Assembly (NCBI RefSeq): GCF_050320075.1
Contig: NZ_CP190018.1
Reading direction: 5' to 3' (one strand)
Source: Escherichia coli
GTDB lineage: Bacteria > Pseudomonadota > Gammaproteobacteria > Enterobacterales > Enterobacteriaceae
DNA: 64,000 nucleotides
Shown: positions 3,210 to 30,401 of the stretch, piece after piece
How positions within the stretch are numbered: the first letter of the stretch is position 1
How the letters are laid out: each line of letters opens with the position of its first letter
Made by a program: the position numbers and the translations under genes
The notes under the pieces: generated by a model
Seen by the model: only the letters and a program-made list of their open reading frames with translations
The model's database searches: none
What the model was told of the DNA's origin: nothing

Positions 3210-4406
3210 TTAAGGTGCTACAGCGTGTTTGCCTTCCCAGACAACTTCGCGGTAGTGCTTCACGTCTGTGTCGCCTTCAGTGCTGATAACCAGCACTACG
3301 GCATCTTTGTTCAGCGCCAGTTTTTCCATCAGGCTTTGACGTTGCGGGTGATAATGAACCGCTGCGAGAACGCCCAAACCGACAGCGCCGGATTCACCGG
3401 AGATGATGCGTGGGTCATTGCCGTACGGGTTACCCAGCACACGCATACCTAATGCGGCAACGCTGTCCTGGCAGGAGATGAATTGGGTGGCGCAGTTACG
3501 TAGGATTTCCCAGCCCAGCGGGTTAGGTTCGCCGCAGGCCAGGCCCGCCATGATGGTGGCCATATCACCGCCAACGTTGACGATGTCGCCTTTGACGCCG
3601 GAGCGATAAATACAGTCAGCTTTGTCAGGTTCAACAATAATGCTGTGCAGATTTTGCGGGCTGTAGACGTCGACCAGATAACCCAGCACACCACCGGCCA
3701 TTGCACCGACACCGGCTTGCAGCAGAACGTGCGTCGGGGTTACGCCCATTTCACGCATTTGCTCGACGGCTTCATCTGCCAGTGTTGCGTAGCCTTGCAT
3801 GATCCAGGTTGGGATTTTGGTGTAACCTTCCCAGGCGGTATCTTGCACCACTTCCCAGCCGTGCTGCTGCGCGTGTTGCATGGTCAGGCGAACGGTATCG
3901 TCATAGTTCATATCCGTGACGATGCACTCGGCACCGAGGTTCAGAATGGCGTCAACGCGTTCCTGAGCAGAACCTTTCGGCATGTAAATCACCGCATTCT
4001 GTCCGAGTTGCTGTGCTGCCCACGCCACACCGCGCCCGTGGTTGCCGTCGGTGGTGGTCGCGAAAGTCATTTTTTCGCCGATGGCATTTTTCAGGTGCTC
4101 AAATGACAGCGTTTCGATATCAAGATGATATTTTTCGCACAATAATTGAGCGATGGCGTATGCACCGCCGAGCATTTTGAAGGCGTTCAGACCGAATCGT
4201 TTTGATTCGTCTTTGACGAGAATTTTCTTCACACCAAAAAGGTTTGCGAGATCGTTCAGCGCACAAAGCGGTGTTGGGCGATAACCAGCAATTTTCTGGT
4301 GGAACTGGCGCGCCAGTTTGGCCTGGCTTTGCGAAAAGAGCGGTGATGTTTCGCCGTTGAAAAATTTGTTATCGGCGATATCAATCTTCAATGAGAAAAC
4401 GGACAT
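3210..4406 (-). CDS. ygeX: diaminopropionate ammonia-lyase (PLP-dependent)
   Basis: 398-aa ORF; PLP beta-family fold signatures (lysine-containing motif, glycine-rich loops); size and position match K-12 ygeX/dpaL as recalled. Confidence 0.85.
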   Translation of the reverse strand: MSVFSLKIDIADNKFFNGETSPLFSQSQAKLARQFHQKIAGYRPTPLCALNDLANLFGVKKILVKDESKRFGLNAFKMLGGAYAIAQLLCEKYHLDIETLSFEHLKNAIGEKMTFATTTDGNHGRGVAWAAQQLGQNAVIYMPKGSAQERVDAILNLGAECIVTDMNYDDTVRLTMQHAQQHGWEVVQDTAWEGYTKIPTWIMQGYATLADEAVEQMREMGVTPTHVLLQAGVGAMAGGVLGYLVDVYSPQNLHSIIVEPDKADCIYRSGVKGDIVNVGGDMATIMAGLACGEPNPLGWEILRNCATQFISCQDSVAALGMRVLGNPYGNDPRIISGESGAVGLGVLAAVHYHPQRQSLMEKLALNKDAVVLVISTEGDTDVKHYREVVWEGKHAVAP

Positions 4407-12778: not shown

Positions 12779-12856
12779 TGGCGAATTAATCAGCAGTCAG
12801 CAGCGCGGCACTTGCTAAGGAGAGCGTAAGGTTTATAATGCCTTACGCATCTCGAA

Positions 12857-12930
12857 GCGGGCGTAGTTCAATGGTAGAACGAGAGCTTCCCAAGCTCTAT
12901 ACGAGGGTTCGATTCCCTTCGCCCGCTCAA
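12857..12930 (+). tRNA. glyU: tRNA-Gly (anticodon CCC)
   Basis: GCGGGCGTAGTTCAATGGTAGAACGAGAGCTTCCCAAGCTCTATACGAGGGTTCGATTCCCTTCGCCCGCTC; acceptor stem pairs, anticodon loop CTTCCCAAG, T-loop GGTTCGATTCC; 3' end reads CAA rather than CCA. Confidence 0.9.
12913..12928. repeat. attL core: 16-bp direct repeat (tRNA-Gly 3' end)
   Basis: TTCCCTTCGCCCGCTC identical to 32061..32076. Confidence 0.7.
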
Positions 12931-13094
12931 AACAAACATTTCTCAACGTCTACTGAAGTCCATCAAATCCACGAATATCAAGCCTTTCAGCCATTTTCAT
13001 AGCTTATTAACGTCTACTCACAACTACCAGAATCTACACACAGAAGTGTATAGTAATGCGTATAGGACAAAATTTATTTTTTGGAGCTATACAC

Positions 13095-14309
13095 ATGCTG
13101 CTTTCAGACCTTGCTATCAGGCGCGCGAAGCCGAAAGAAAAGGCTTATACACTCAATGACGGTAACGGGCTTTCGTTACTCATTGAGCCGAACGGCTCGA
13201 AAGGGTGGCGACTACGTTACAGATTTGCAGGAAAGCCCAAAATGTTGTCGTTGGGCGTGTACCCTGATGTGTCTCTGTCTGATGCCAGAGCGGCAAGGGA
13301 TGAGGCTAAAAGGCTTCTTGCTGGTGGTATAAATCCAAGTGAGGCCAGAAAAGCTCAAAAGCGAGAACAGGCGAGCAAATTTGGCAATACTTTTGAGGGT
13401 ATCGCTCGCGAATGGTATGAAAAGCGGATCGACAGGTGGTCATCGTCATACGCCGAGGAAATGATCGAGACGTTTGAAAAAGACGTTTTTCCGTACATTG
13501 GCGGCAGGCCGATCGCAGAAATTAAGCCAATGGAGTTGCTTGCGGTTCTCTCCCGTCTTAATGACCGTGGGGCGACCGAAAAATTGCGTAAGGTTCGCCA
13601 GCGATGCGGCGAGGTGTTCCGGTACGCAATCATCACCGGACGCGCTGAATATAACCCCGCACCAGATCTGGCAAGCGCATTTGCTCCACACAAAAAAGAG
13701 CATTATGCCTATTTGAAGGCCGACGAACTGCCGGAATTTTTCCGCGTTCTTAATACGTACACCGGAAGCCAGATCGTCAAGCTGGGTATGCGATTATTGA
13801 TTCTGACAGGGCTCCGGCCAGGGGAATTACGACAGGCAGAATGGCAGGAGATCGATTTTGATAATCGTTTGTGGGAAGTGCCTAAAGAACGAATGAAGAT
13901 GCGCCGTCCTCATTGTGTGCCGCTTTCAGAACAGGCGATCGCTATTCTGGAACAGTTAAAACACATGACGGGGCAGTATCAGTTTATTTTCCCTGGTCGA
14001 ATCCAGCACAGTAAGCCGATGAGTGAAATGGCGATGAACGTGCTTATTCGTCGTATTGGCTATTCTGGGCGCGTTACTGGTCATGGGTTCCGGCACACGA
14101 TGAGCACGATTTTACATGAGCAGGGCTATAACACCGCGTGGATAGAAACGCAGCTTGCACACGTTGATAAGAACTCAATTCGTGGCACGTACAATCATGC
14201 GCAATATCTGGACGGGCGGCGCGAGATGCTCCAGTGGTACGCCGACTATATGGACTCACTGGAACAGGGCGGCAACGTGGTGCATGGCAAGTTCGGAAAA
14301 TGTGGATGA
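13095..14309 (+). CDS. tyrosine integrase, P4-type
   Basis: ORF 13056..14309; N-terminal LSDLAIRRAKPKEKAYTLNDGNGLSL and catalytic-domain HGFRHT ... Y residues typical of P4/CP4-57-like integrases. Confidence 0.85.
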   Translation: MLLSDLAIRRAKPKEKAYTLNDGNGLSLLIEPNGSKGWRLRYRFAGKPKMLSLGVYPDVSLSDARAARDEAKRLLAGGINPSEARKAQKREQASKFGNTFEGIAREWYEKRIDRWSSSYAEEMIETFEKDVFPYIGGRPIAEIKPMELLAVLSRLNDRGATEKLRKVRQRCGEVFRYAIITGRAEYNPAPDLASAFAPHKKEHYAYLKADELPEFFRVLNTYTGSQIVKLGMRLLILTGLRPGELRQAEWQEIDFDNRLWEVPKERMKMRRPHCVPLSEQAIAILEQLKHMTGQYQFIFPGRIQHSKPMSEMAMNVLIRRIGYSGRVTGHGFRHTMSTILHEQGYNTAWIETQLAHVDKNSIRGTYNHAQYLDGRREMLQWYADYMDSLEQGGNVVHGKFGKCG

Positions 14310-14431
14310 CTGGTTGAGTATACAGTAGTAGACTTTGAGCGACGAAAGAAAAAGCTGTGTCTAGGGTCGCTCCCGAAAAACCGTATACCTCGACGGGCTG
14401 GCACAGCCACTACAGTAGAGGACGCTGAGGT

Positions 14432-15235
14432 GTGCGTATGATTGATATTCATGCCGAATTAAACGAATACAAAAAAGATTTTATTTCTTTACGTGAATTT
14501 CTTGAGGTCGTGCTTAAGGTCGCTGGTGATGATTATGATGTTTCAGATCTCATAACTTGGATACTCAGGAGAATAAGCGGAGAACATATCCGCCTGTACA
14601 CAGTAAATGAATTTAAGCTGTTGGAATCTTTTTGTAACCCGTATCGGGATGAATTTGATTATGATGTTCTTTATAGAAATCTGGATGCGGTTCGGAAACA
14701 TGGTTGTTTACCTGGTGAGAGGGATGAAAATGGTTTTCTGGTGTCCGGTTATTGGGAAGATCCCGAATTTGAGAACATTGGATTTATAAGGGGTGAAATT
14801 TTCGCAATTTTTCCCGATGTCCTTGACGCGTTAACGAAGCTGGAAGGCGCTAACTCTTCTGAAAATGACGAGGTACAAGGACGCGATATTGAAAAGAAAG
14901 AGTTGCGTACAGAGGATGATTTATTATCCCAAATCGCAATGCTGGAAAGAGAAAACGCAGAGTTAAGGGCAAGGATAGAGCAGTTAGAGCAAGAGCGCCC
15001 GATACACTTATATAAATACTGGGATAAAGACCCATTAGCTAAGGCTATTGAGATTAGAAACAGAGAGTGGGCCAATTACGATCCAGAAAATGATTTTGCC
15101 ACCAGGGGAAATCAAGAAGCGATAACCAGGGAGCTTAAGCAGTGGGGGGCAAGTAATGCTCTTGCAACGCTCATAGAGAGGACTGCCTGCCCTATTAACC
15201 GAGACAACAGCCAAAAGAACGCAAAGCCGGATTAA
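14432..15235 (+). CDS. hypothetical protein (267 aa), acidic with coiled-coil segment
   Basis: Long ORF in AT-rich DNA between int and alpA; heptad-like LSQIAMLERENAELRARIEQLEQE; no family recognised. Confidence 0.5.
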   Translation: MRMIDIHAELNEYKKDFISLREFLEVVLKVAGDDYDVSDLITWILRRISGEHIRLYTVNEFKLLESFCNPYRDEFDYDVLYRNLDAVRKHGCLPGERDENGFLVSGYWEDPEFENIGFIRGEIFAIFPDVLDALTKLEGANSSENDEVQGRDIEKKELRTEDDLLSQIAMLERENAELRARIEQLEQERPIHLYKYWDKDPLAKAIEIRNREWANYDPENDFATRGNQEAITRELKQWGASNALATLIERTACPINRDNSQKNAKPD

Positions 15236-15248
15236 CGCACCATACCGC

Positions 15249-15399
15249 ATACCCTGAGGGTGATTTACTGTTACCCTGAGGGTATTTTTTTATCTTCCCC
15301 GTCAATTTTACCATCACCCTTAGGGTAGATTTCCTCCCGATTACCATCACCCTTAGGGTTAATTTCCTTCCGGTAACCATTAGGCCTGAGGGTATGAAA
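15249..15399. repeat. array of five palindromic ACCCT(G/T)AGGGT motifs (putative regulator binding sites)
   Basis: taccctgagggt x2, catcacccttagggt(a/t) x2 within a 33-bp direct repeat, ggcctgagggta; located just upstream of alpA. Confidence 0.6.
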
Positions 15400-15462
15400 A
15401 TATTCGTTATTTCTGTGCCATGATTACCTCGTCAAATTGAGTAGACGTTATGAGGTAAATAG

Positions 15463-15660
15463 ATGTCAAATACGCTTATTCGTTTAACAGAAGTTCAGCG
15501 TAGAACTGGATATAGCAAGGCATGGATTTATCGCCTTATGGGGCAAGGTAAATTTCCTGCATCAGTTAAAATTGGCTCGCGAGCGATTGCTTTCGTTGAA
15601 AGTGAAATTGACGAATGGATCAATCAGCGTATTGCCGAATCACGCGGAACGGCTGCCTGA
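15463..15660 (+). CDS. alpA: AlpA-family transcriptional regulator / excisionase-like (MerR-type HTH)
   Basis: 65 aa, LTEVQRRTGYSKAWIYRLMGQGKFP motif characteristic of AlpA/phage regulatory protein. Confidence 0.8.
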   Translation: MSNTLIRLTEVQRRTGYSKAWIYRLMGQGKFPASVKIGSRAIAFVESEIDEWINQRIAESRGTAA

Positions 15661-15735
15661 TTAAATAGCTACGGGTTATTGCCCAAGCTATCCACTAGCA
15701 AATAAAAAGTAACTTAATTCGATAGCGGAGTTTTT

Positions 15736-16560
15736 ATGAAACTGCGAAAAACGCCCGTACAGGGGCAGGGCTTTGTTCGGCCTGAAAACCAGAATCTGCA
15801 AAATTTCGGCGAAATTATCCCGGTTATTTCCGGCGTTATTGGCGGGCGTGAAGCCGCTGTTGTTAGCGCAAAAGCGTTACACAAAGCGTTGGGCGTGGGA
15901 AAAGACTTCTCTACATGGATCACTGATCGTATCTCTGAATATGACTTCACCATTGGGTACGATTACTCAGTCCATAAAACAATTTCCCCAAATTTGGGGA
16001 AAAGCCCGAATGGCGAGGCTTACAGCAAGATTAAGCACTCTGGCAGACCCGGTAAAGACTATCTGTTAAGTGTCGGAATGGCGAAAGAACTGGCAATGAT
16101 CGAACGCACCGAACAGGGCCGCGCCGTTCGTCAGTACTTCATCAAATGCGAGGAGGAGCTACACAAAGTAGCGCCAGTGCGTTCCGCAGCGTTACGCCGT
16201 GAACTGAAAGCCCGTATCACCGTTGCCAGCTACTTTAAGCCGATGTGTGCCGCGCTGGAGGCGTACCGCGCTGAACTGGGTAAAAACACGCTCCAGCACC
16301 ACTACACCACGGAAGCCAATATGCTGGCGCGTATCGTGCTGGGTGGCATGACTGCAAAACAGTGGGCGCAGGCGAACGGCATCACAGGCGAACCACGCGA
16401 CCACATGAGCACGCTGCAGCTTGAGCACCTTTCTTACCTTGAGCAGAGCAATATCACGCTGATTGAGTTAGGCCAGGACTACCACCAGCGGAAAGCTGAA
16501 TTAATTCGTCTTTCGCAACGCTGGTTAGCCCGCCGCATGGAGGTGAGCAGCCATGCGTAA
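15736..16560 (+). CDS. phage antirepressor-like protein (KilA-C-like domain), tentative
   Basis: 274 aa; position after alpA and adjacency to a Bro-N gene; domain call is from memory of motif content only. Confidence 0.45.
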   Translation: MKLRKTPVQGQGFVRPENQNLQNFGEIIPVISGVIGGREAAVVSAKALHKALGVGKDFSTWITDRISEYDFTIGYDYSVHKTISPNLGKSPNGEAYSKIKHSGRPGKDYLLSVGMAKELAMIERTEQGRAVRQYFIKCEEELHKVAPVRSAALRRELKARITVASYFKPMCAALEAYRAELGKNTLQHHYTTEANMLARIVLGGMTAKQWAQANGITGEPRDHMSTLQLEHLSYLEQSNITLIELGQDYHQRKAELIRLSQRWLARRMEVSSHA

Positions 16561-17110
16561 ACCTGTCTTTTATGCCGGGCGCACTGAAATCTCTGTCATT
16601 AAATTCGATGACATTCAGGTGCGCATAGTGAGTATCAACGGCGAGCCGTGGTTTGTTGGCGCTGATGTGTGTGCTGCGCTGGAAATCAGCAATGTTACTG
16701 ATGCTGTTTCAGTTCTGGATAACGACGAGGTAATGACCCTAGCTTTAACCGAGGGGCATTCCGGTAAGCGTGGTGGTGCCAGAAGCTGGAATGTTGTCTC
16801 TGAATCAGGTTTCTACAAACTGATCGCCCGCAGCCGTAAAGCTTCCACACCTGGCACATTTGCGCACCGTTTCAGTAACTGGGTATTCCGCGAGGTTATT
16901 CCTTCAATCCGCAAAACGGGGAGTTATGGTGTTCCGTTTGCCATGCTGAATGATTTCAGTAAACGCCAGGCTGCATATCAACAGGAAGCCAGCAAACGCG
17001 GTTACAGGTTACAGCAATGCAAAGAGGCAAAAGATGCACTGGAACGAGAAGAGCGGGCGCTATGGCGTAAATATCAGCCTGATTTTCTGGAGGGTGAAAG
17101 CAATGTGTAA
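16553..17110 (+). CDS. Bro-N domain protein (prophage antirepressor family), tentative
   Basis: 185 aa; N-terminal FxFxxxxVRxxxxxGEPWFV pattern typical of Bro-N; start overlaps previous stop. Confidence 0.5.
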   Translation: MRKPVFYAGRTEISVIKFDDIQVRIVSINGEPWFVGADVCAALEISNVTDAVSVLDNDEVMTLALTEGHSGKRGGARSWNVVSESGFYKLIARSRKASTPGTFAHRFSNWVFREVIPSIRKTGSYGVPFAMLNDFSKRQAAYQQEASKRGYRLQQCKEAKDALEREERALWRKYQPDFLEGESNV

Positions 17111-17278
17111 CGATCCGAACGTTACAGAAAGAAAAAGCGCCCCGTTGCTGGATAACAGGCAAAACAAAGGCGACCGGGATAGGTCGCCAGTGGGAACAAA
17201 GGAAATCAAACGCATCGCCAACAATGCCAGATTTGCGGCTGGTGGGCAATGTGATCAGTGTGCTGGCTTGCTGGTGGG

Positions 17279-17476
17279 CTATTCCTGCTCTTTAGCATCG
17301 CCATACTGCGATGTTTTCCAGGTATGCGATCCCATTTTTGTGCGCCTGTACTCTTTTAAGAACTTCTCAAGGACAAACGCACATGGTGCAAATCTTTCCT
17401 GTTCTTGTTCGCTTACCGCATTTTTGCGTTGTTTTTTCCTGGATGAGGATAATTTCTTTAATGATTTGTCAGTCAT
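17279..17476 (-). CDS. small basic protein, diverged paralogue of the adjacent 65-aa gene
   Basis: 65 aa; shares C-terminal ...AKEQE and upstream nucleotide similarity with 17534..17731. Confidence 0.3.
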   Translation of the reverse strand: MTDKSLKKLSSSRKKQRKNAVSEQEQERFAPCAFVLEKFLKEYRRTKMGSHTWKTSQYGDAKEQE

Positions 17477-17533
17477 CGTAGATACCTGTAACCCTGTGCG
17501 CCACAGTTCACCGCACCACGGCGCTGGTGATGG

Positions 17534-17731
17534 TTACTCCTGCTCTTTGGCCTTCCGGCGCTGTTCATATTTTAATTTGCGTCCACAGGCATCTAAGACC
17601 CATGCGGAAAAATTAGCACTAGGATTAGTTAATTTTTCTTGTTCAACACTGGCATCAATCCCATCTATAAGCTCGTGCGGGAATCGAATATTTTTCTTTG
17701 CTGATTTGTTGTTTGTGTTTCCGCTAGACAT
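17534..17731 (-). CDS. small DNA-binding-like protein (YlcI/YnfO-like, tentative)
   Basis: 65 aa; IRFPHELIDGIDA ... NFSAWVLDAC resembles small prophage regulators as I recall them; divergent from the rightward operon. Confidence 0.45.
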   Translation of the reverse strand: MSSGNTNNKSAKKNIRFPHELIDGIDASVEQEKLTNPSANFSAWVLDACGRKLKYEQRRKAKEQE

Positions 17732-17757
17732 TGGTACACCTCACTTAAATGGATTTG

Positions 17758-17841
17758 ATGGGCGCACACAATACAGCAAAAAAAGTGAGAAGTTAAGTAT
17801 TGACATGTGCGCACACATGATTTTAATCTGTGCGCACAGTT
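17758..17841. promoter_or_regulatory. three (T)GTGCGCACA palindromes overlapping a TTGACA -35 box (operator/promoter region)
   Basis: ggcgcacaca (17761), TTGACAtgtgcgcacacatg (17801), ctgtgcgcacag (17828). Confidence 0.5.
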
Positions 17842-18132
17842 TGGGTTGCATTGCTCAAATTAAGCAACGCCCCGCAGTGCTCGCAACACATGCAGGGCGT
17901 CTAACCACCAACGATAGAAAGCGTATCGAGGTAGCTATGTTAAATCATACCACACACCCGCAAGGGCGGGACTCGCACAACCTGAATAAATACATCTGGC
18001 GTTTTATCGCCCTGAGCACCGCACAACCACGCGTAATACACATCGAGGCCGCCAGCGAACAGGAAGCCCGTCAGCAATCCCCGGCTGGCTGCGTGATGGT
18101 ATTTACTGCCCGCATCCGTCAGGGGGAATACT

Positions 18133-18390
18133 ATGCGTGATGAACGATTTATTCTTCTGGAGCAAAAATTCAGTGAAGCGCCAAAAAATGAAATTGATGC
18201 TCTTTTGCATATCGCGAATATGCTAAAAGTAGCAACGTTCCTTATAGTTTCGAATCTGGAGCATGAAACGGCGTTAGATATACTGAACAGTGCTGTCGAT
18301 TATTCTGAATATATTGCCGAGGATAAATACAGGCAATTACCAGATTTGTTAGCCCATAAATATAAAGAAGAACCTCACACCGGGAAATAA
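18133..18390 (+). CDS. hypothetical protein (85 aa)
   Basis: ORF in operon context upstream of the replication protein. Confidence 0.4.
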   Translation: MRDERFILLEQKFSEAPKNEIDALLHIANMLKVATFLIVSNLEHETALDILNSAVDYSEYIAEDKYRQLPDLLAHKYKEEPHTGK

Positions 18391-18392
18391 AC

Positions 18393-18695
18393 ATGAAGAA
18401 GATTAAATTTACTGGCTTAAATGCCAGCGGACAGACTCACCCGAAAATCAGGATCGGGGATATTTTCCGGGATAAATATGGTGACAGCGTGGTTATTAAT
18501 TCCGTGTATGAACGGCACATTACATACCGCCGCGCAGGGTACGACTATGACTGTGTGATGCCCGTTCATCAGTTCCGGCGTGATTTTTCACTGGTATGTG
18601 CAGTACCACGCAGTAAGCCCACCAGTAAAGAGAAAGCACGGGCAAATATTCAGGTAATAAAGAACATGATTAACGCATTCAGGGGCAAGAAATGA
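18393..18695 (+). CDS. hypothetical protein (100 aa)
   Basis: ORF tightly spaced, its stop overlaps the next start. Confidence 0.4.
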   Translation: MKKIKFTGLNASGQTHPKIRIGDIFRDKYGDSVVINSVYERHITYRRAGYDYDCVMPVHQFRRDFSLVCAVPRSKPTSKEKARANIQVIKNMINAFRGKK

Positions 18696-27645: not shown

Positions 27646-30401
27646 TGAAACAGGCATGTGTTGAAGCTATTGCGCAGACACTTGGTCGCCAGCCAAAGGC
27701 TGATGAGCTGAAAAATATCGAAGATCGTATCAAAGAAGCAGTGCAACATGTGCACAGAAAGAATGCAAAAGAAGGCAAAAGTGGTATTCCTGATGCTCAA
27801 ACATACATGGATGCTGCAGAACTGGTACGCCAGCGTGTGGTTCATGATGTGTACAAGAAAAGACAGCGTGTTGCCCAGAATGCGATCGCCATCAGTAAAA
27901 TTACTGACACTCTCGATGCTAACATCCCGCCTGATCAGCAGACACCTGTTAATTTGCAGCAGTTTATTTTTGCTGGCCGACGATCGAGAGACAAAGCTGA
28001 TATCTCCGTTGCTTCTGCTGAAGAGCTTGCAATTGGGGCATATCAGGACTGGTCCCGTCAGCTCAGTGCTGAACTTCTAAAAGCAGGTGATGACGTCCGC
28101 AAATTCTTCGAGCAGAGCAGGGCGCTTGGAGAGCAGCGGTTTCGGAGTGTATTCGACAGGCAGGCGGCAAAGTCTGCACAACTCCAGATCCTGAAAGAAA
28201 TTTATGGCGAAGATACCGGGAATCCCCTGGCGAAGAAAATTGCACAGATTTGGAAGGATGTAACAGGCCGTGTTCGTCATGAGATGAACGACAACGGCTT
28301 TGACATAGGCCTGCGAGAAGACTGGCATACGCCATATGTGGATGATGCTGACCTTATTCGCAATGCCGGGCGCGAAGAATGGCTGGCATCGTTACCAGTG
28401 GCAGAGCAAGCTACAGCACGTCTTTCAGGTCGCCAGCCACCGATTGAGTTTGCCCGCCAGAAATGGGTTGATGACGCTTACAACACGCAGGATCGCAGCA
28501 ATTACGTTAATCCTGACGGCAGCATTATGAATGACGTCGAGTACCGTCAGGCACTGGAAGCGATCTTTGAAACGAAGGCCACTGATGGGGCAAACAAAAT
28601 TGAGCCCGGTACATTTATGGGAGCCGGAGGAATAAAGAGCCGTGGTTCTCAGCACAGGGGGATGGCGTTCAAGGATGCGCAGTCACACTTCGCCTATATG
28701 GAGCGATACACTCAGCAGCCGCTGGTGGGGGTGATGATGTCGCACCTGCAATCATCATCCAGGGATTTGGGCGTCGTTAAAGCCTTTGGTCCGGACGCCG
28801 AAAGAAACTTTTCCCTGGTACTGGATCGCATCTATAAGCGCGCAGTAACAGGCGGGAAACGCAAAAAAGAAATGGAGGATGAGGCCAAATTAGTAGCCCG
28901 TATGTTCAACTCAATGGCTGGCCTAAATGGTGTCGCTTCATCGAGTGTGTTCTCTTCAGCTGTTGGTGGTCTGCGTAACCTGATGACCAGCGCCATGCTT
29001 GGCACCAGCGTACTGACAGCAACCAGCGACCAGGCAATTATGCGGGCAAATGCGCAGGCGCTGGGCTTTACCCGTGGTGGAATGCGGCTTTCCGTTAACA
29101 CTATCAAAAACCTGTTTAGTGGAGATGCCAAAAAGGCGAATGCTGAACTCGGTCTGCTGGTGGATTCACATGCTGCTGTGGTTTCGAAAATGGGCGGGTT
29201 TGACTTGTCTCGCGGCATAACTGGCTGGTTCGCAGAGAAGACACTGAAGTGGTCCGGGCTGATCGCTATGGACCGCGCAAACAAAGCGTCGTTTGGTCTC
29301 CTGATGTACAAAAACATTGGCGAGCTGACCAGAAAATTTAAGACGCTGGACGATATGAAAGGAACCGATAAAACCATTCTGGCTAACAAGGGATGGAGCA
29401 ATGAGGACTGGGCCATCATGGCAGCGGCAGAACTCAGGCCGATGACTACTGCCGGGCATATGGGGATGACGCCAGACGCGATTTACGCTGTGCCCGATAA
29501 CGTAATCGCCGACATTATGGCAGACCGTATTACCCGGATTCGTGCCGGGAGTGAAAAGGCACTGGCAGCACTTGGAGATCTCCCTCCAGAACGCCTGAAA
29601 CGGATGAAAGAAGCATTCGACGCTGAGGCTGAGCAGACCATCACGCGCATGATTCGTAATGCACGCGCTGAAGCAGCCCATAAATTGCTGGGAATTACGC
29701 ACGGTGAGATGACCAATGCTGTGACCACCGCTACGGGTATTGATACATATGCCCGTGATGATGCTGGCGAGTTAATGAAGAGCTTCATGCTCTTCAAAAC
29801 AACCCCATTTGCTGGATTTCGGCAACTTGTTAACAGAACACGGGATTTGGACACCGTTCCGGCCATTAAATTTCTGGCCTCATATATCGGGGGAACAACT
29901 CTTGCTGGTATGTTTGCGATCCAGATGAACAGTTTGTTAAATGGTAATGATCCGCTGGATATGACAAAACCAACCACATGGGTTCAGGCTTTACTGAAAG
30001 GTGGTTCGTTCGGTATCTACGGTGATTTTATTTTCCAGGACCATACGCAATATGGCTCCAGCATCGGTGCCACTATGGGTGGCCCTGTGTTGAGCTTTGC
30101 AGAGCAGTTAACAAAATTACTGATTACTAACCCACAGAAGGCTCTACAGGGTGAAGAAACATCATTCGGTGCCGATGCACTGAAAACAGCCCGCATGATC
30201 ACCCCATTCGCAAACCTGTGGTATGCGAAAGCGATAACCAATCACCTGATATTGCAACAACTTCAGGAGATGGCAAACCCTGGTTACAATGATCGAGTAA
30301 GGGACCGCGCGCAACGGGAGTTCGACATAACGAGTTGGTGGGAACCGGGTGCTATTGCGCCACGTAGAGCACCGGATTTTGGAAAGGCGGTGGGGAACTG
30401 A
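27645..30401 (+). CDS. large hypothetical protein (about 918 aa)
   Basis: ATG at 27645 overlaps previous stop (TAATG); ORF track 27624..30401. Confidence 0.65.
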   Translation: MKQACVEAIAQTLGRQPKADELKNIEDRIKEAVQHVHRKNAKEGKSGIPDAQTYMDAAELVRQRVVHDVYKKRQRVAQNAIAISKITDTLDANIPPDQQTPVNLQQFIFAGRRSRDKADISVASAEELAIGAYQDWSRQLSAELLKAGDDVRKFFEQSRALGEQRFRSVFDRQAAKSAQLQILKEIYGEDTGNPLAKKIAQIWKDVTGRVRHEMNDNGFDIGLREDWHTPYVDDADLIRNAGREEWLASLPVAEQATARLSGRQPPIEFARQKWVDDAYNTQDRSNYVNPDGSIMNDVEYRQALEAIFETKATDGANKIEPGTFMGAGGIKSRGSQHRGMAFKDAQSHFAYMERYTQQPLVGVMMSHLQSSSRDLGVVKAFGPDAERNFSLVLDRIYKRAVTGGKRKKEMEDEAKLVARMFNSMAGLNGVASSSVFSSAVGGLRNLMTSAMLGTSVLTATSDQAIMRANAQALGFTRGGMRLSVNTIKNLFSGDAKKANAELGLLVDSHAAVVSKMGGFDLSRGITGWFAEKTLKWSGLIAMDRANKASFGLLMYKNIGELTRKFKTLDDMKGTDKTILANKGWSNEDWAIMAAAELRPMTTAGHMGMTPDAIYAVPDNVIADIMADRITRIRAGSEKALAALGDLPPERLKRMKEAFDAEAEQTITRMIRNARAEAAHKLLGITHGEMTNAVTTATGIDTYARDDAGELMKSFMLFKTTPFAGFRQLVNRTRDLDTVPAIKFLASYIGGTTLAGMFAIQMNSLLNGNDPLDMTKPTTWVQALLKGGSFGIYGDFIFQDHTQYGSSIGATMGGPVLSFAEQLTKLLITNPQKALQGEETSFGADALKTARMITPFANLWYAKAITNHLILQQLQEMANPGYNDRVRDRAQREFDITSWWEPGAIAPRRAPDFGKAVGN

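What the first reader, a model, noticed from the sequence alone, without database searches (positions are those of the whole stretch)
14432..15235. AT-rich 267-aa orphan gene between integrase and alpA, a possible single-gene cargo
The gene has clearly lower GC than its flanks and occupies the integrase-proximal slot where accessory genes commonly sit in P4-like and PICI-like elements. The protein is acidic with a C-terminal leucine-zipper-like coiled coil and no recognisable enzymatic motif. It could be an abortive-infection, superinfection-exclusion or helper-interference factor.
Basis: inference. Interest (0 to 1): 0.45.

Follow-up and report, generated by a model that had tools for sequence, protein, structure and literature searches.

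The report
Modular regulator gene guarding the alpA promoter
The "orphan" gene between the integrase and alpA of this E. coli satellite-like island is not an orphan: it belongs to an undescribed family of modular proteins that most likely bind a phased array of palindromes in front of alpA, the island's master switch, through a conserved tail, while their swappable head may act as a sensor.

Summary
The ORF is real. Its true start is the ATG at 14438 (265 aa). It is acidic, AT-rich mainly in its N-terminal half, and has no hit in Pfam, PHROG, PADLOC or NCBIfam. It is not an orphan and probably not passive cargo.

Homologues occur in Enterobacterales, Orbaceae and Pasteurellaceae. In 22 of the 23 related loci examined, they lie directly upstream of an AlpA-family gene on the same strand. 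None was found in phage or plasmid records.

The protein has three parts:
- a swappable N-terminal domain;
- a leucine zipper (aa 158-186);
- a conserved 70-aa helical C domain ("C1").

Between its stop codon and alpA lie five 11-bp palindromes (ACCCTNAGGGT) spaced 22, 43, 33 and 34 bp apart, about whole helical turns. The exact motif occurs nowhere else in the 64 kb.

Across loci the repeat type follows the C-domain type, not the N domain or the AlpA type. C1 goes with 5-1-5 palindromes. An alternative C domain goes with direct repeats.

Best reading (confidence about 0.6): a dimeric DNA-binding regulator, probably a repressor, of the alpA promoter, with a variable input domain. DNA binding and the sign of regulation are inferred, not shown.

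The gene is preceded by the Rfam int-alpA RNA (RF02996), which appears to be its 5' leader.

I found no paper describing this protein family.

The parts
12857..12928 (+). tRNA-Gly(CCC) (glyU), the integration site and left boundary of the island
   Evidence: ARAGORN; Rfam tRNA at 71.6 bits. Flanked by xdhA and actS, as in E. coli SCU-105.
13095..14309 (+). P4-type tyrosine integrase (404 aa by the PGAP start; the longest ORF starts at 13056)
   Evidence: Homologous integrases in related loci carry Arm-DNA-bind_3, Phage_int_M and Phage_integrase domains.
14354..14421 (+). int-alpA RNA motif (Rfam RF02996), which ends 17 nt before the ATG of the gene and is probably its structured 5' leader
   Evidence: 46.9 bits against a gathering score of 35.8, E = 2e-7. 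The same motif is found in 16 of 17 related loci, in those checked ending about 15-20 nt before the first slot ORF, whatever that ORF encodes. The outer stem shows compensatory changes.
14438..15235 (+). Gene X (265 aa plus stop), the gene in the finding
14438..14851 (+). X N-terminal domain (aa 1-138): acidic (pI 4.5), 38.9% GC, a swappable cassette with a winged-helix-like alpha/beta topology in aa 4-64 plus a helical subdomain
14909..14995 (+). X leucine-zipper-like coiled coil (aa 158-186), preceded by a disordered acidic linker (aa 139-157)
   Evidence: A single long helix in both AF2 models. The only database signals are coiled-coil families.
14996..15202 (+). X conserved C-terminal domain 'C1' (aa 187-255; motifs ERPILL, DDPLxLAIxIRNxEW and AIExVACPIxR), the proposed DNA-binding module
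15251..15393 (.). Array of five 11-bp palindromes: ACCCTGAGGGT at 15251 and 15273, ACCCTTAGGGT at 15316 and 15349, and a degenerate GGCCTGAGGGT at 15383. Centre-to-centre spacings are 22, 43, 33 and 34 bp. Proposed operators of X.
   Evidence: Four exact matches against 0.76 expected in 64 kb, all inside this spacer. Confirmed independently by the repeat finder. Enrichment and association with C-domain type are, helical phasing.
15414..15424 (+). Possible extended -10 element (TGTGCCATGAT) of the alpA promoter. The last palindrome is centred about 43 bp upstream of the implied start site.
   Evidence: Read from the sequence and from similar TGnnAnnAT elements in related loci. The consensus promoter scan found nothing here, so this is tentative.
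15424..15458 (+). Possible hairpin pairing TTACCTCGT with AUGAGGUAA, which would sequester the alpA Shine-Dalgarno sequence
   Evidence: MFE -9.4 kcal/mol with z = -1.2, not significant on its own. Across 12 loci, 76% of cells pair against 46% or less in slid controls, with weak covariation.
15463..15660 (+). alpA (65 aa), an AlpA-family HTH regulator and the presumed target of the module
   Evidence: Homologues carry Pfam Phage_AlpA and HTH_17. Its role as PICI activator is described in PMC6092414 and PMC11773190.

Best explanation
Gene X most likely encodes a dimeric, sequence-specific DNA-binding regulator of the alpA promoter. alpA is the master switch of this Gram-negative PICI-like island.

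Proposed mechanism:
- The leucine zipper (aa 158-186) dimerises the protein.
- The conserved four-helix C1 domain (aa 187-255) reads 5-1-5 palindromes (ACCCTNAGGGT).
- Five such sites sit on one face of the helix between X's stop codon and the alpA promoter, which would allow cooperative occupancy.
- The acidic, cassette-like N-terminal domain is an input or sensor module whose specificity varies between islands.

The most likely direction is repression. X would hold alpA, and therefore excision and replication of the island, silent until the N domain is engaged, for example by a helper-phage protein. The sign of regulation cannot be read from the sequence.

Shown here:
- the gene, its modular family and its fixed position upstream of alpA;
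- the palindrome array, its statistical enrichment and its helical phasing;
- the association between repeat type and C-domain type.

Inferred, not shown:
- that C1 binds the array;
- that this controls alpA;
- that it represses;
- that the N domain senses a signal.
For: 1. Synteny. In 8 loci found through exact-protein look-ups, an X relative lies upstream of an AlpA-family gene on the same strand. The same holds in 14 of 15 loci from a genome scan with the C-domain alignment. The gap is 70-320 bp. A P4-type integrase usually lies upstream. The islands differ in replication module (DUF927, AAA_25 or DnaB-like).

2. Modularity. The C1 domain is joined to at least six unrelated N domains, and the window's N domain is also joined to a different C domain, C2. 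In Kluyvera, Raoultella, Pantoea and Orbaceae the protein is split into two ORFs.

3. The operator array. There are four exact ACCCTNAGGGT sites plus one degenerate site, confined to 15251-15393, against 0.76 expected in 64 kb.

4. Association with C-domain type.
- The window-derived consensus, allowing up to 2 mismatches, hits the X-alpA spacer 3-6 times in independent loci L016-L021, against 1-3 hits in the other 8 kb (P from 5e-5 to 2e-9).
- The degenerate form AC[CT][CA]TNA[GT][AG]GT gives 30 hits in the spacers of 12 of 14 C1 loci, against 2 in about 190 kb elsewhere.
- It gives 0 hits in the spacers of 9 loci without C1.

5. The repeat type follows the C domain, not AlpA or the N domain.
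- AlpA-1 with C1 (window, L002, L016-18, L021): palindromes.
- AlpA-1 with C2 (L007, L013; AlpA 80% identical to the window's, with nearly the same HTH residues): CACTTCCAA direct repeats.
- AlpA-2 with C1 (L005): ACCGTGAGGGT palindromes.
- AlpA-2 with diverged C2 (L011, L015): other direct repeats.
- A palindrome fits the zipper-containing C1.

6. Phasing. The spacings between 31 pairs of adjacent sites cluster at about 2, 3, 4 and 5 helical turns (resultant 0.8 at a 10.5-bp period).

7. C1 is the only mildly basic part of the protein (pI 8.1), whereas the N domain has pI 4.5.

8. The family is absent from 50,697 phage and 72,556 plasmid records. It therefore appears specific to chromosomal islands of this type.

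9. Literature. AlpA is the activator of Gram-negative PICIs and its expression is triggered by helper phage. The trigger is unknown, and whether a repressor exists is described as 'unclear' (PMC6092414; PMC11773190).
Against: - The C domain and the repeats are physically adjacent, so their association could reflect co-inheritance of a DNA block rather than function.
- The loci are not phylogenetically independent, and the degenerate pattern was defined after seeing the data.
- The most conserved C1 residues (AIExVACPIxR) do not change where half-sites change (ACCCT versus ACTAT), so the specificity determinants are not identified.
- The characterised PICIs EcCIMP1 and, apparently, EcCICFT073 lack X, yet their alpA is still induced by helper phage (PMC6092414). 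X therefore cannot be the general sensor.
- No sigma-70 consensus promoter was found for alpA or for X, so operator-to-promoter geometry is tentative.
- There are no expression or binding data.
Confidence: 0.6

Rival explanations
1. X is accessory cargo: a single-gene anti-phage, superinfection-exclusion or helper-interference factor sitting in an integrase-proximal hotspot. The downstream repeats would then be its own terminator or regulatory region, or irrelevant.
For: - The slot holds unrelated proteins in other islands, some followed by plain terminators (L034), and one is a DUF6387 protein.
- The N domain is a low-GC swapped cassette. A variable sensor joined to a constant module is also typical of defence proteins.
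- PICIs and P4-like satellites are known to carry defence hotspots (own knowledge; the library search found no paper placing a hotspot at int-alpA).
Against: - No PADLOC hit and no enzymatic, membrane or nucleotide-binding domain.
- The constant module is a 70-aa helical domain with a zipper, which is not an effector-like fold.
- The tight linkage to alpA holds across bacterial orders and across different island backbones.
- A phased multi-site palindrome array that tracks the C domain is not expected for cargo.
- This rival is not fully exclusive of the main explanation, because a phage-sensing regulator could also give a defence phenotype.
Confidence: 0.15
2. The palindromes are bound by a different protein (AlpA autoregulation, integrase arm domain, or a host factor). 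X's C domain is associated with them only because the two are neighbours and are inherited as one recombination block. X would then do something else.
For: - AlpA activates its own promoter in PICIs (PMC6092414), so AlpA sites are expected upstream of alpA.
- C1 has no recognisable DNA-binding fold.
- Mosaic boundaries show that block-wise recombination occurs here.
Against: - AlpA proteins with nearly identical HTH residues sit behind completely different repeat types, and both AlpA types occur with both repeat classes.
- The spacer segment that stays constant with AlpA type is the alpA-proximal stretch of about 35-70 nt, not the array.
- The array is more than 2 kb from the attL core, on the far side of int, so it is not placed where arm-type sites lie.
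- The pattern of palindromes with the zipper domain and direct repeats without it is hard to explain by linkage alone.
Confidence: 0.13
3. X is an activator rather than a repressor. Bound at about -43 and further upstream, it would recruit RNA polymerase to a weak alpA promoter that lacks a -35 element when its N domain receives a signal.
For: - There is no -35 or sigma-70 consensus in the spacer.
- The promoter-proximal site is centred about 43 bp upstream of the putative start, a classical class-II activator position.
- alpA is an induced gene (PMC6092414).
Against: - The promoter assignment is tentative.
- Multi-site phased arrays extending 175 bp upstream are more typical of repressor or looping systems.
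- Islands without X still induce alpA (PMC11773190).
- This is a variant of the main explanation, with the same binding and the opposite sign.
Confidence: 0.2
4. X is an architectural or recombination accessory protein (a co-factor of the AlpA/Vis-type excisionase), or a centromere- or iteron-binding protein for the excised island.
For: - It is located in the 'integration zone' between int and the AlpA-family RDF-like gene.
- Arrays of repeats next to the gene that reads them are also typical of partition and replication systems (own knowledge).
Against: - The array is not at either island end and is far from the att core.
- The replication module (DUF4222, DUF927 primase and SSB) lies 3-6 kb downstream.
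- There is no similarity to ParB, ParR or Rep families.
Confidence: 0.05

Closest known systems
SaPI Stl / Gram-positive PICI Rpr master repressors
   Same: - An island-encoded regulator next to int that gates the excision and replication programme.
- Highly variable between islands, with a DNA-binding part plus a variable part that, in Stl, docks a specific helper-phage protein (PMC6092414 introduction).
   Different: - Stl and Rpr use a recognisable N-terminal HTH and are transcribed divergently from the genes they repress.
- X is co-directional with int and alpA. Its constant (proposed DNA-binding) module is C-terminal with a zipper and has no detectable HTH family.
- There is no sequence or fold similarity.
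- Derepression by a phage protein is untested here.
AlpA-controlled Gram-negative PICIs (EcCICFT073, EcCIMP1)
   Same: The same island plan: tRNA site, P4-type int, alpA, AntA and Bro-N zone, DUF927 primase, PerC, and captured virion genes (PMC10111431 four-zone scheme).
   Different: - The characterised members have no X. EcCIMP1 has a 428-bp gap with no homologue and no palindromes.
- The literature describes only int and alpA in the integration zone.
Rfam RF02996 int-alpA RNA motif (Weinberg et al. 2017, candidate sRNA; function unknown)
   Same: It is present immediately upstream of X at 14354-14421, above the gathering score, and in 16 of 17 related loci.
   Different: - It is an RNA element, not the protein.
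- The new point here is that it consistently abuts the start codon of whatever protein gene fills the slot, so it looks like a cis-acting leader rather than a free sRNA. This is an inference.
Phage immunity modules (lambda CI/Cro with multiple operators) and MerR-type regulators (HTH, coiled coil, effector domain)
   Same: - A dimeric regulator with cognate multi-site operators inherited together as a specificity cassette.
- A coiled-coil dimerisation helix linking a DNA-binding part and an input part.
   Different: - The domain order is reversed relative to MerR.
- There is no HTH or RHH signature.
- Operators lie downstream of the regulator's own gene and upstream of the next gene, not in a divergent promoter region.
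[quoted passage not shown]
   Same: Domain shuffling among satellite regulatory proteins. The window has AntA and Bro-N genes just downstream.
   Different: X has no Bro-N, KilA-C or ANT domains, and it lies in the integration zone, not the Bro zone.

Membership tests
Gram-negative PICI-like satellite (the island as a whole) | Unidirectional int, alpA and primase genes at a specific att site, with no full phage structural or lysis set | tested here: met
   tRNA-Gly site, int, alpA, DUF927 primase/helicase, SSB and PerC, all on the + strand. The late zone holds only a few virion-protein homologues.
Gram-negative PICI-like satellite (the island as a whole) | Induction and packaging by a helper phage | not testable with these tools
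   This needs an experiment. attR was not located.
Stl/Rpr-type master repressor | Recognisable HTH DNA-binding domain | tested here: not met
Stl/Rpr-type master repressor | Cognate operators between the repressor gene and the genes it controls | tested here: inconclusive
   A phased array that tracks the C-domain type lies between X and alpA. Binding itself was not tested.
Stl/Rpr-type master repressor | Divergent transcription from the controlled operon | tested here: not met
   X, int and alpA are all on the + strand.
Stl/Rpr-type master repressor | Derepression by binding a helper-phage protein | not testable with these tools
   Only indirect support: the N domain is a hypervariable swapped cassette.
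Known anti-phage defence systems (PADLOC-DB v2) | Match to a model of a known or candidate defence protein | tested here: not met
   0 families at E <= 1.
bZIP / leucine-zipper transcription factors | A basic DNA-contacting region immediately N-terminal to the zipper | tested here: not met
   Pfam bZIP_2 scores only E = 0.055, over the zipper. The segment before the zipper is acidic and disordered (pI 4.7, pLDDT < 50).
Rfam RF02996 int-alpA RNA (the flanking element) | Covariance-model score at or above the curated gathering threshold | tested here: met
   46.9 bits against 35.8 at 14354-14421.
Pfam DUF6387 (a protein occupying the same slot in UPEC132) | Match to PF19924 | tested here: not met
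   Only the L035 protein matches (9e-38). X and the other 20 slot proteins do not.

The most novel reading that the evidence does not exclude
X-type slot proteins are the missing gatekeepers of a large subset of Gram-negative PICI-like satellites. The constant zipper-plus-C module would sit on a phased operator array and silence alpA. The hypervariable N-terminal cassette would be a receptor for a specific helper-phage (or replication-associated) protein, whose binding releases alpA and fires the island. The N cassette would then define helper range, as Stl does in SaPIs but with an unrelated protein. The Rfam int-alpA RNA would be the translational leader that sets the level of the gatekeeper.
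Probability: 0.3. Interest if true: 0.8.

Novelty: new variant of a known kind. Interest (0 to 1): 0.6.

Why it matters
How helper phages switch on alpA in Gram-negative PICIs is an acknowledged open question. PMC6092414 says the existence of a repressor there is 'unclear' and that identification of the phage-encoded inducer was still 'under study'.

This locus offers a concrete, testable candidate for a subset of these islands:
- a protein family with no annotation;
- a defined 11-bp operator, with five sites at known coordinates;
- a natural set of N-domain and C-domain swaps that predict specificity changes.

It also changes how the Rfam int-alpA RNA should be read. The motif is catalogued as a candidate sRNA, but here it looks like the leader of a protein gene that had been overlooked.

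If the variable N domain turns out to be a phage sensor, it would help predict helper-satellite pairings from sequence.

Tried and rejected
Searches that found nothing useful:
- Family searches of X against Pfam, PHROGs, PADLOC and NCBIfam gave only coiled-coil noise.
- Pfam on 22 different slot proteins found only DUF6387, in one unrelated protein.
- PDB sequence searches with the full-length and C-domain profiles gave coiled-coil hits only.
- Foldseek against AFDB50 returned only 'Uncharacterized protein' entries, from Enterobacterales and Acinetobacter/Moraxellaceae.
- tblastn against the phage and plasmid collections found no match.

Technical failures and dead ends:
A narrower alignment, A3, worked.
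- A search for attR using the tRNA 3' end found only the tRNA itself.
- The promoter scan found no sigma-70 consensus anywhere in 12900-15800. Promoter placement is therefore by eye and tentative.
- RNAalifold on the alpA 5' UTR gave no consensus structure. The named hairpin has only modest support.

Hypotheses considered and rejected:
- EcCIMP1_002, annotated as 'UvrB-like', might have been an X relative. The EcCIMP1 int-alpA gap has no X homologue and no palindromes.
- SEN1998 of ROD21 turned out to be the AlpA-like RDF, not an X relative.

Literature:
- Searches for a repressor or sensor upstream of alpA, for DUF6387 and for int-alpA found nothing describing this protein.
- The supplement of Weinberg et al. 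2017 is not held in the library.
Full report
**Where the window comes from and what the island is**

The window is an E. coli chromosome. The finding lies in an island inserted at tRNA-Gly(CCC) (12857-12928), next to xdhABC and actS. All island genes run on the + strand:
- a P4-type integrase (13095-14309);
- the gene in question (X, 14438-15235);
- alpA (15463-15660);
- AntA and Bro-N genes;
- an Icd-like gene, DUF4222, a DUF927 primase/helicase, SSB, ProQ/FinO and PerC;
- large proteins that match phage virion families (phrog_992 and phrog_684).

This is the four-zone layout (Integration, Bro, Replication, Late) described for Gram-negative PICI satellites (PMC10111431). It resembles EcCIMP1 (PMC11773190).

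**Checking the observation**

The ORF exists. The first in-frame start is a GTG at 14432. Homologues begin with MIDI and PGAP starts the protein (WP_001580987.1, 'hypothetical') at the ATG at 14438, giving 265 aa.

Its GC content is 41.5%, against 50.1% for int and 52.8% for antA. The spacer and alpA downstream are also low (42.7% and 43.9%). The dip is strongest in the N-terminal half (38.9%).

The protein is acidic (pI 4.67). The coiled coil spans aa 158-186 and is not terminal: a conserved 70-aa domain follows it.

Pfam, PHROGs, PADLOC and NCBIfam give nothing beyond coiled-coil noise.

It is not an orphan:
- 43 clusters at 90% identity and 65 representative hits at 50% identity;
- this allele is in 144-179 of 5,426 complete E. 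coli genomes;
- relatives occur across Enterobacterales, Orbaceae and Pasteurellaceae;
- structural relatives, all uncharacterised, occur in Acinetobacter.

**Anatomy of the protein family**

The alignments show two separable modules.

The C-terminal roughly 100 aa consist of a zipper plus a domain I call 'C1'. Its motifs are ERPILL, DDPLxLAIxIRNxEW and AIExVACPIxR. C1 is conserved in proteins of 109-515 aa that carry at least six unrelated N-terminal regions.

Conversely, the window's N domain (aa 1-138) also occurs fused to a different C domain, 'C2' (FAGKDTALMLIAGLA...).

AlphaFold models support this layout:
- The N domain is confident (pLDDT about 80-90). Residues 4-64 have a winged-helix-like order of helices and strands.
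- The linker is disordered.
- The coiled coil is one long helix.
- C1 is a four-helix domain (pLDDT 88 with the deeper alignment).

The window and L002 occupy the same chromosomal site. They share 94.7% nucleotide identity from the tRNA through int, the leader and the first 7 codons of X. There is no similarity across the N domain. Identity returns to 80-87% from C1 through the spacer, alpA and antA.

**Genomic context is fixed**

Exact-protein look-ups for divergent homologues gave the order int - X - alpA, or X - alpA, every time. This held for homologues sharing only C1 (P0034, P0036, P0038) and for those sharing only the N domain (P0079, P0084, P0091, P0100).

A scan of one genome per species with the C-domain alignment returned 15 loci. 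Of these, 14 have an AlpA-family gene 70-320 bp downstream on the same strand, and 8 have a recognisable P4-type integrase upstream.

The islands differ in their replication genes (DUF927, AAA_25, DnaB-like). No homologue exists in 50,697 phage or 72,556 plasmid records.

**The repeat array**

The 227-bp spacer between X and alpA holds the following sites:

| Start | Sequence |
|---|---|
| 15251 | ACCCTGAGGGT |
| 15273 | ACCCTGAGGGT |
| 15316 | ACCCTTAGGGT |
| 15349 | ACCCTTAGGGT |
| 15383 | GGCCTGAGGGT (degenerate) |

The exact motif occurs nowhere else in the 64 kb, against 0.76 matches expected by chance. A looser form of the motif matches once more, at 26369.

Centre-to-centre spacings are 22, 43, 33 and 34 bp. 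Across all C1 loci, the spacings between 31 pairs of adjacent sites cluster at about 2, 3, 4 and 5 helical turns (resultant 0.8 at a 10.5-bp period). This places the sites on one face of the DNA, as expected for cooperative protein binding.

**The repeats follow the C domain**

The consensus taken from the window alone (up to 2 mismatches) hits the X-alpA spacer 3-6 times in the independent loci L016-L021, against 1-3 hits in the remaining 8 kb (P from 5e-5 to 2e-9).

The degenerate 5-1-5 palindrome AC[CT][CA]TNA[GT][AG]GT gives:
- 30 hits in the spacers of 12 of 14 C1 loci;
- 2 hits in about 190 kb of other sequence;
- 0 hits in the spacers of 9 loci that lack C1.

Half-sites drift with phylogeny. 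They are ACCCT in enterics, ACCAT or ACTAT-like in Xenorhabdus and Cedecea, and ACTAT in Orbaceae and Pasteurellaceae. The architecture stays the same.

Loci with the C2 domain instead have direct repeats:
- CACTTCCAA in L007 and L013;
- CTACCAA in L011;
- CGCCCCCA in L015.

This follows the divergence of C2 itself.

All four combinations of AlpA type and C type exist:

| AlpA type | C type | Loci | Repeat type |
|---|---|---|---|
| AlpA-1 | C1 | window, L002, L016-18, L021 | palindromes |
| AlpA-1 | C2 | L007, L013 | direct repeats |
| AlpA-2 | C1 | L005 | palindromes |
| AlpA-2 | C2 | L011, L015 | direct repeats |

The repeat class goes with the C domain in each case. The AlpA of L007 is 80% identical to the window's, with nearly the same helix-turn-helix residues, yet sits behind a different repeat type. 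What stays constant with AlpA type is only the last 35-70 nt before alpA.

Palindromes accompany the zipper-bearing C1 and direct repeats accompany C2, which is what dimer versus non-dimer recognition would predict.

**Interpretation**

The simplest account is that the zipper plus C1 forms a dimeric DNA-binding module whose operators are the palindromes. On this account X regulates alpA and the N domain is a variable input module.

According to the literature, AlpA is the activator that starts the Gram-negative PICI cycle. Its expression is triggered by helper phage through an unknown factor, and whether a repressor exists is 'unclear' (PMC6092414; confirmed for EcCIMP1 in PMC11773190).

I favour repression. 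The reasons are the multi-site phased array reaching 175 bp upstream and the analogy with Stl. However, the promoter-proximal site is centred about 43 bp upstream of a tentative start site, behind a possible extended -10 (TGTGCCATGAT, 15414-15424). That geometry would also suit a class-II activator. The consensus scan found no sigma-70 promoter here at all.

**Limits**

- Binding has not been shown.
- C1 has no recognisable DNA-binding fold.
- The C domain and the array are adjacent, so linkage could mimic co-evolution.
- The loci are related to one another.
- X is not universal. EcCIMP1 has a 428-bp gap with no homologue and no palindromes.
- Four other E. coli islands carry other proteins in the slot: a 237-aa protein with a C1-like tail and different repeats, two proteins of 260 and 321 aa that share an N-terminal motif (the 321-aa one is followed by a plain terminator), and a DUF6387 protein.

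X can be at most the gatekeeper of a subset of these islands.

**Side findings**

1. The int-X spacer matches Rfam RF02996 'int-alpA RNA' (14354-14421, 46.9 bits against a gathering score of 35.8). The motif occurs in 16 of 17 related loci. It ends about 15-20 nt before the first slot ORF whatever that ORF encodes. Its outer stem shows compensatory changes: GCTGTG/CACAGC, GCTATG/CATAGC and GCCGCG/CGCGGC. It therefore looks like a cis-acting leader of the slot gene.

2. In Kluyvera, Raoultella, Pantoea and Orbaceae the protein is split in two. The first ORF, which carries the N1 domain, ends in (P)MDFDDDIPF. From my own knowledge, this is the C-terminal docking peptide of E. coli SSB.

3. A hairpin may sequester the alpA Shine-Dalgarno sequence. 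Support is modest.

**Novelty**

I found no paper describing this protein. The kind of thing is known: a mobile-element regulator with cognate operators and a variable sensor part. The protein family, its operator and its placement are not described. I rate it a new variant of a known kind, with interest 0.6.

Noticed in passing
window 14354-14421 (+); also L002, L005, L007, L011, L013, L015-L021, L023, L034, L035: The int-X spacer matches Rfam RF02996 'int-alpA RNA', catalogued as a candidate sRNA. In 16 of 17 related loci it ends about 15-20 nt before the start codon of whatever gene fills the int-alpA slot (C1-type X, C2-type X, DUF6387 or another protein). Its outer stem shows compensatory changes. 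It looks like a cis-acting 5' leader of the slot gene.
   Followed up: partly
L016 about 3484-3803, L017 about 3420-3790, L018 about 3484-3803, L023 3108-3428: In the split two-gene versions of the slot protein, the first ORF (N1 domain) ends in ...(P)MDFDDDIPF*. This is identical to the C-terminal docking tip of E. coli SSB (own knowledge). It may be an SSB-tail mimic, hinting that the input module talks to replication or repair proteins. The window's fused X lacks this tail.
   Followed up: partly
window 15424-15458: A hairpin (TTACCTCGT ... ATGAGGTAA) would sequester the alpA Shine-Dalgarno sequence. It is conserved in loci with this AlpA type: 76% of cells pair, against 46% or less in slid controls. 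It is not significant by single-sequence folding (z = -1.2). If the alpA promoter starts inside the 5' arm, only read-through transcripts from X would be translationally blocked.
   Followed up: partly
window 23054-25585, 25585-27645, 27645-30401: Three large 'hypothetical' genes in the late zone match phage virion families: phrog_992 (head protein / transglycosylase-like), phrog_1145 and phrog_684 (virion structural protein). They have no PADLOC hits. They resemble the podovirus ejection-protein-like genes of EcCIMP1, so the helper may be a P22/Kapi1-like phage.
   Followed up: partly
window 14321-14339 and 14411-14429: A direct repeat, TACAGTAGTAGAC... and TACAGTAGAGGAC..., brackets the int-alpA RNA motif. 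The upstream copy region (ATAGACAGT / GTAGAC) is also conserved in related loci. Its function is unknown.
   Followed up: no
L005, L011, L016, L017, L023, L034, L035 (Bro zones): C4 antisense RNA, isrK and c4-a1b1 (P1/P4-type immunity RNAs) are present in the Bro zone of many related islands. None was detected in the window's island (12800-23000, E <= 1), although an Icd-like gene is annotated there.
   Followed up: no
L019 2137-3394 (Xenorhabdus ehlersii): An IS630-like transposase has inserted into the small first slot ORF between the int-alpA RNA and X. This is a natural disruption of the two-gene version.
   Followed up: no
L032 2549-3262 (E. coli 08-00022): The slot protein here has a tail distantly resembling C1 (AIRELWSTYDPDDP...GAGSNVARAVNLILRP) but no zipper. 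Its spacer carries different repeats (ATGGTGGTT / AACCACCAAT). It may represent a third specificity class.
   Followed up: no
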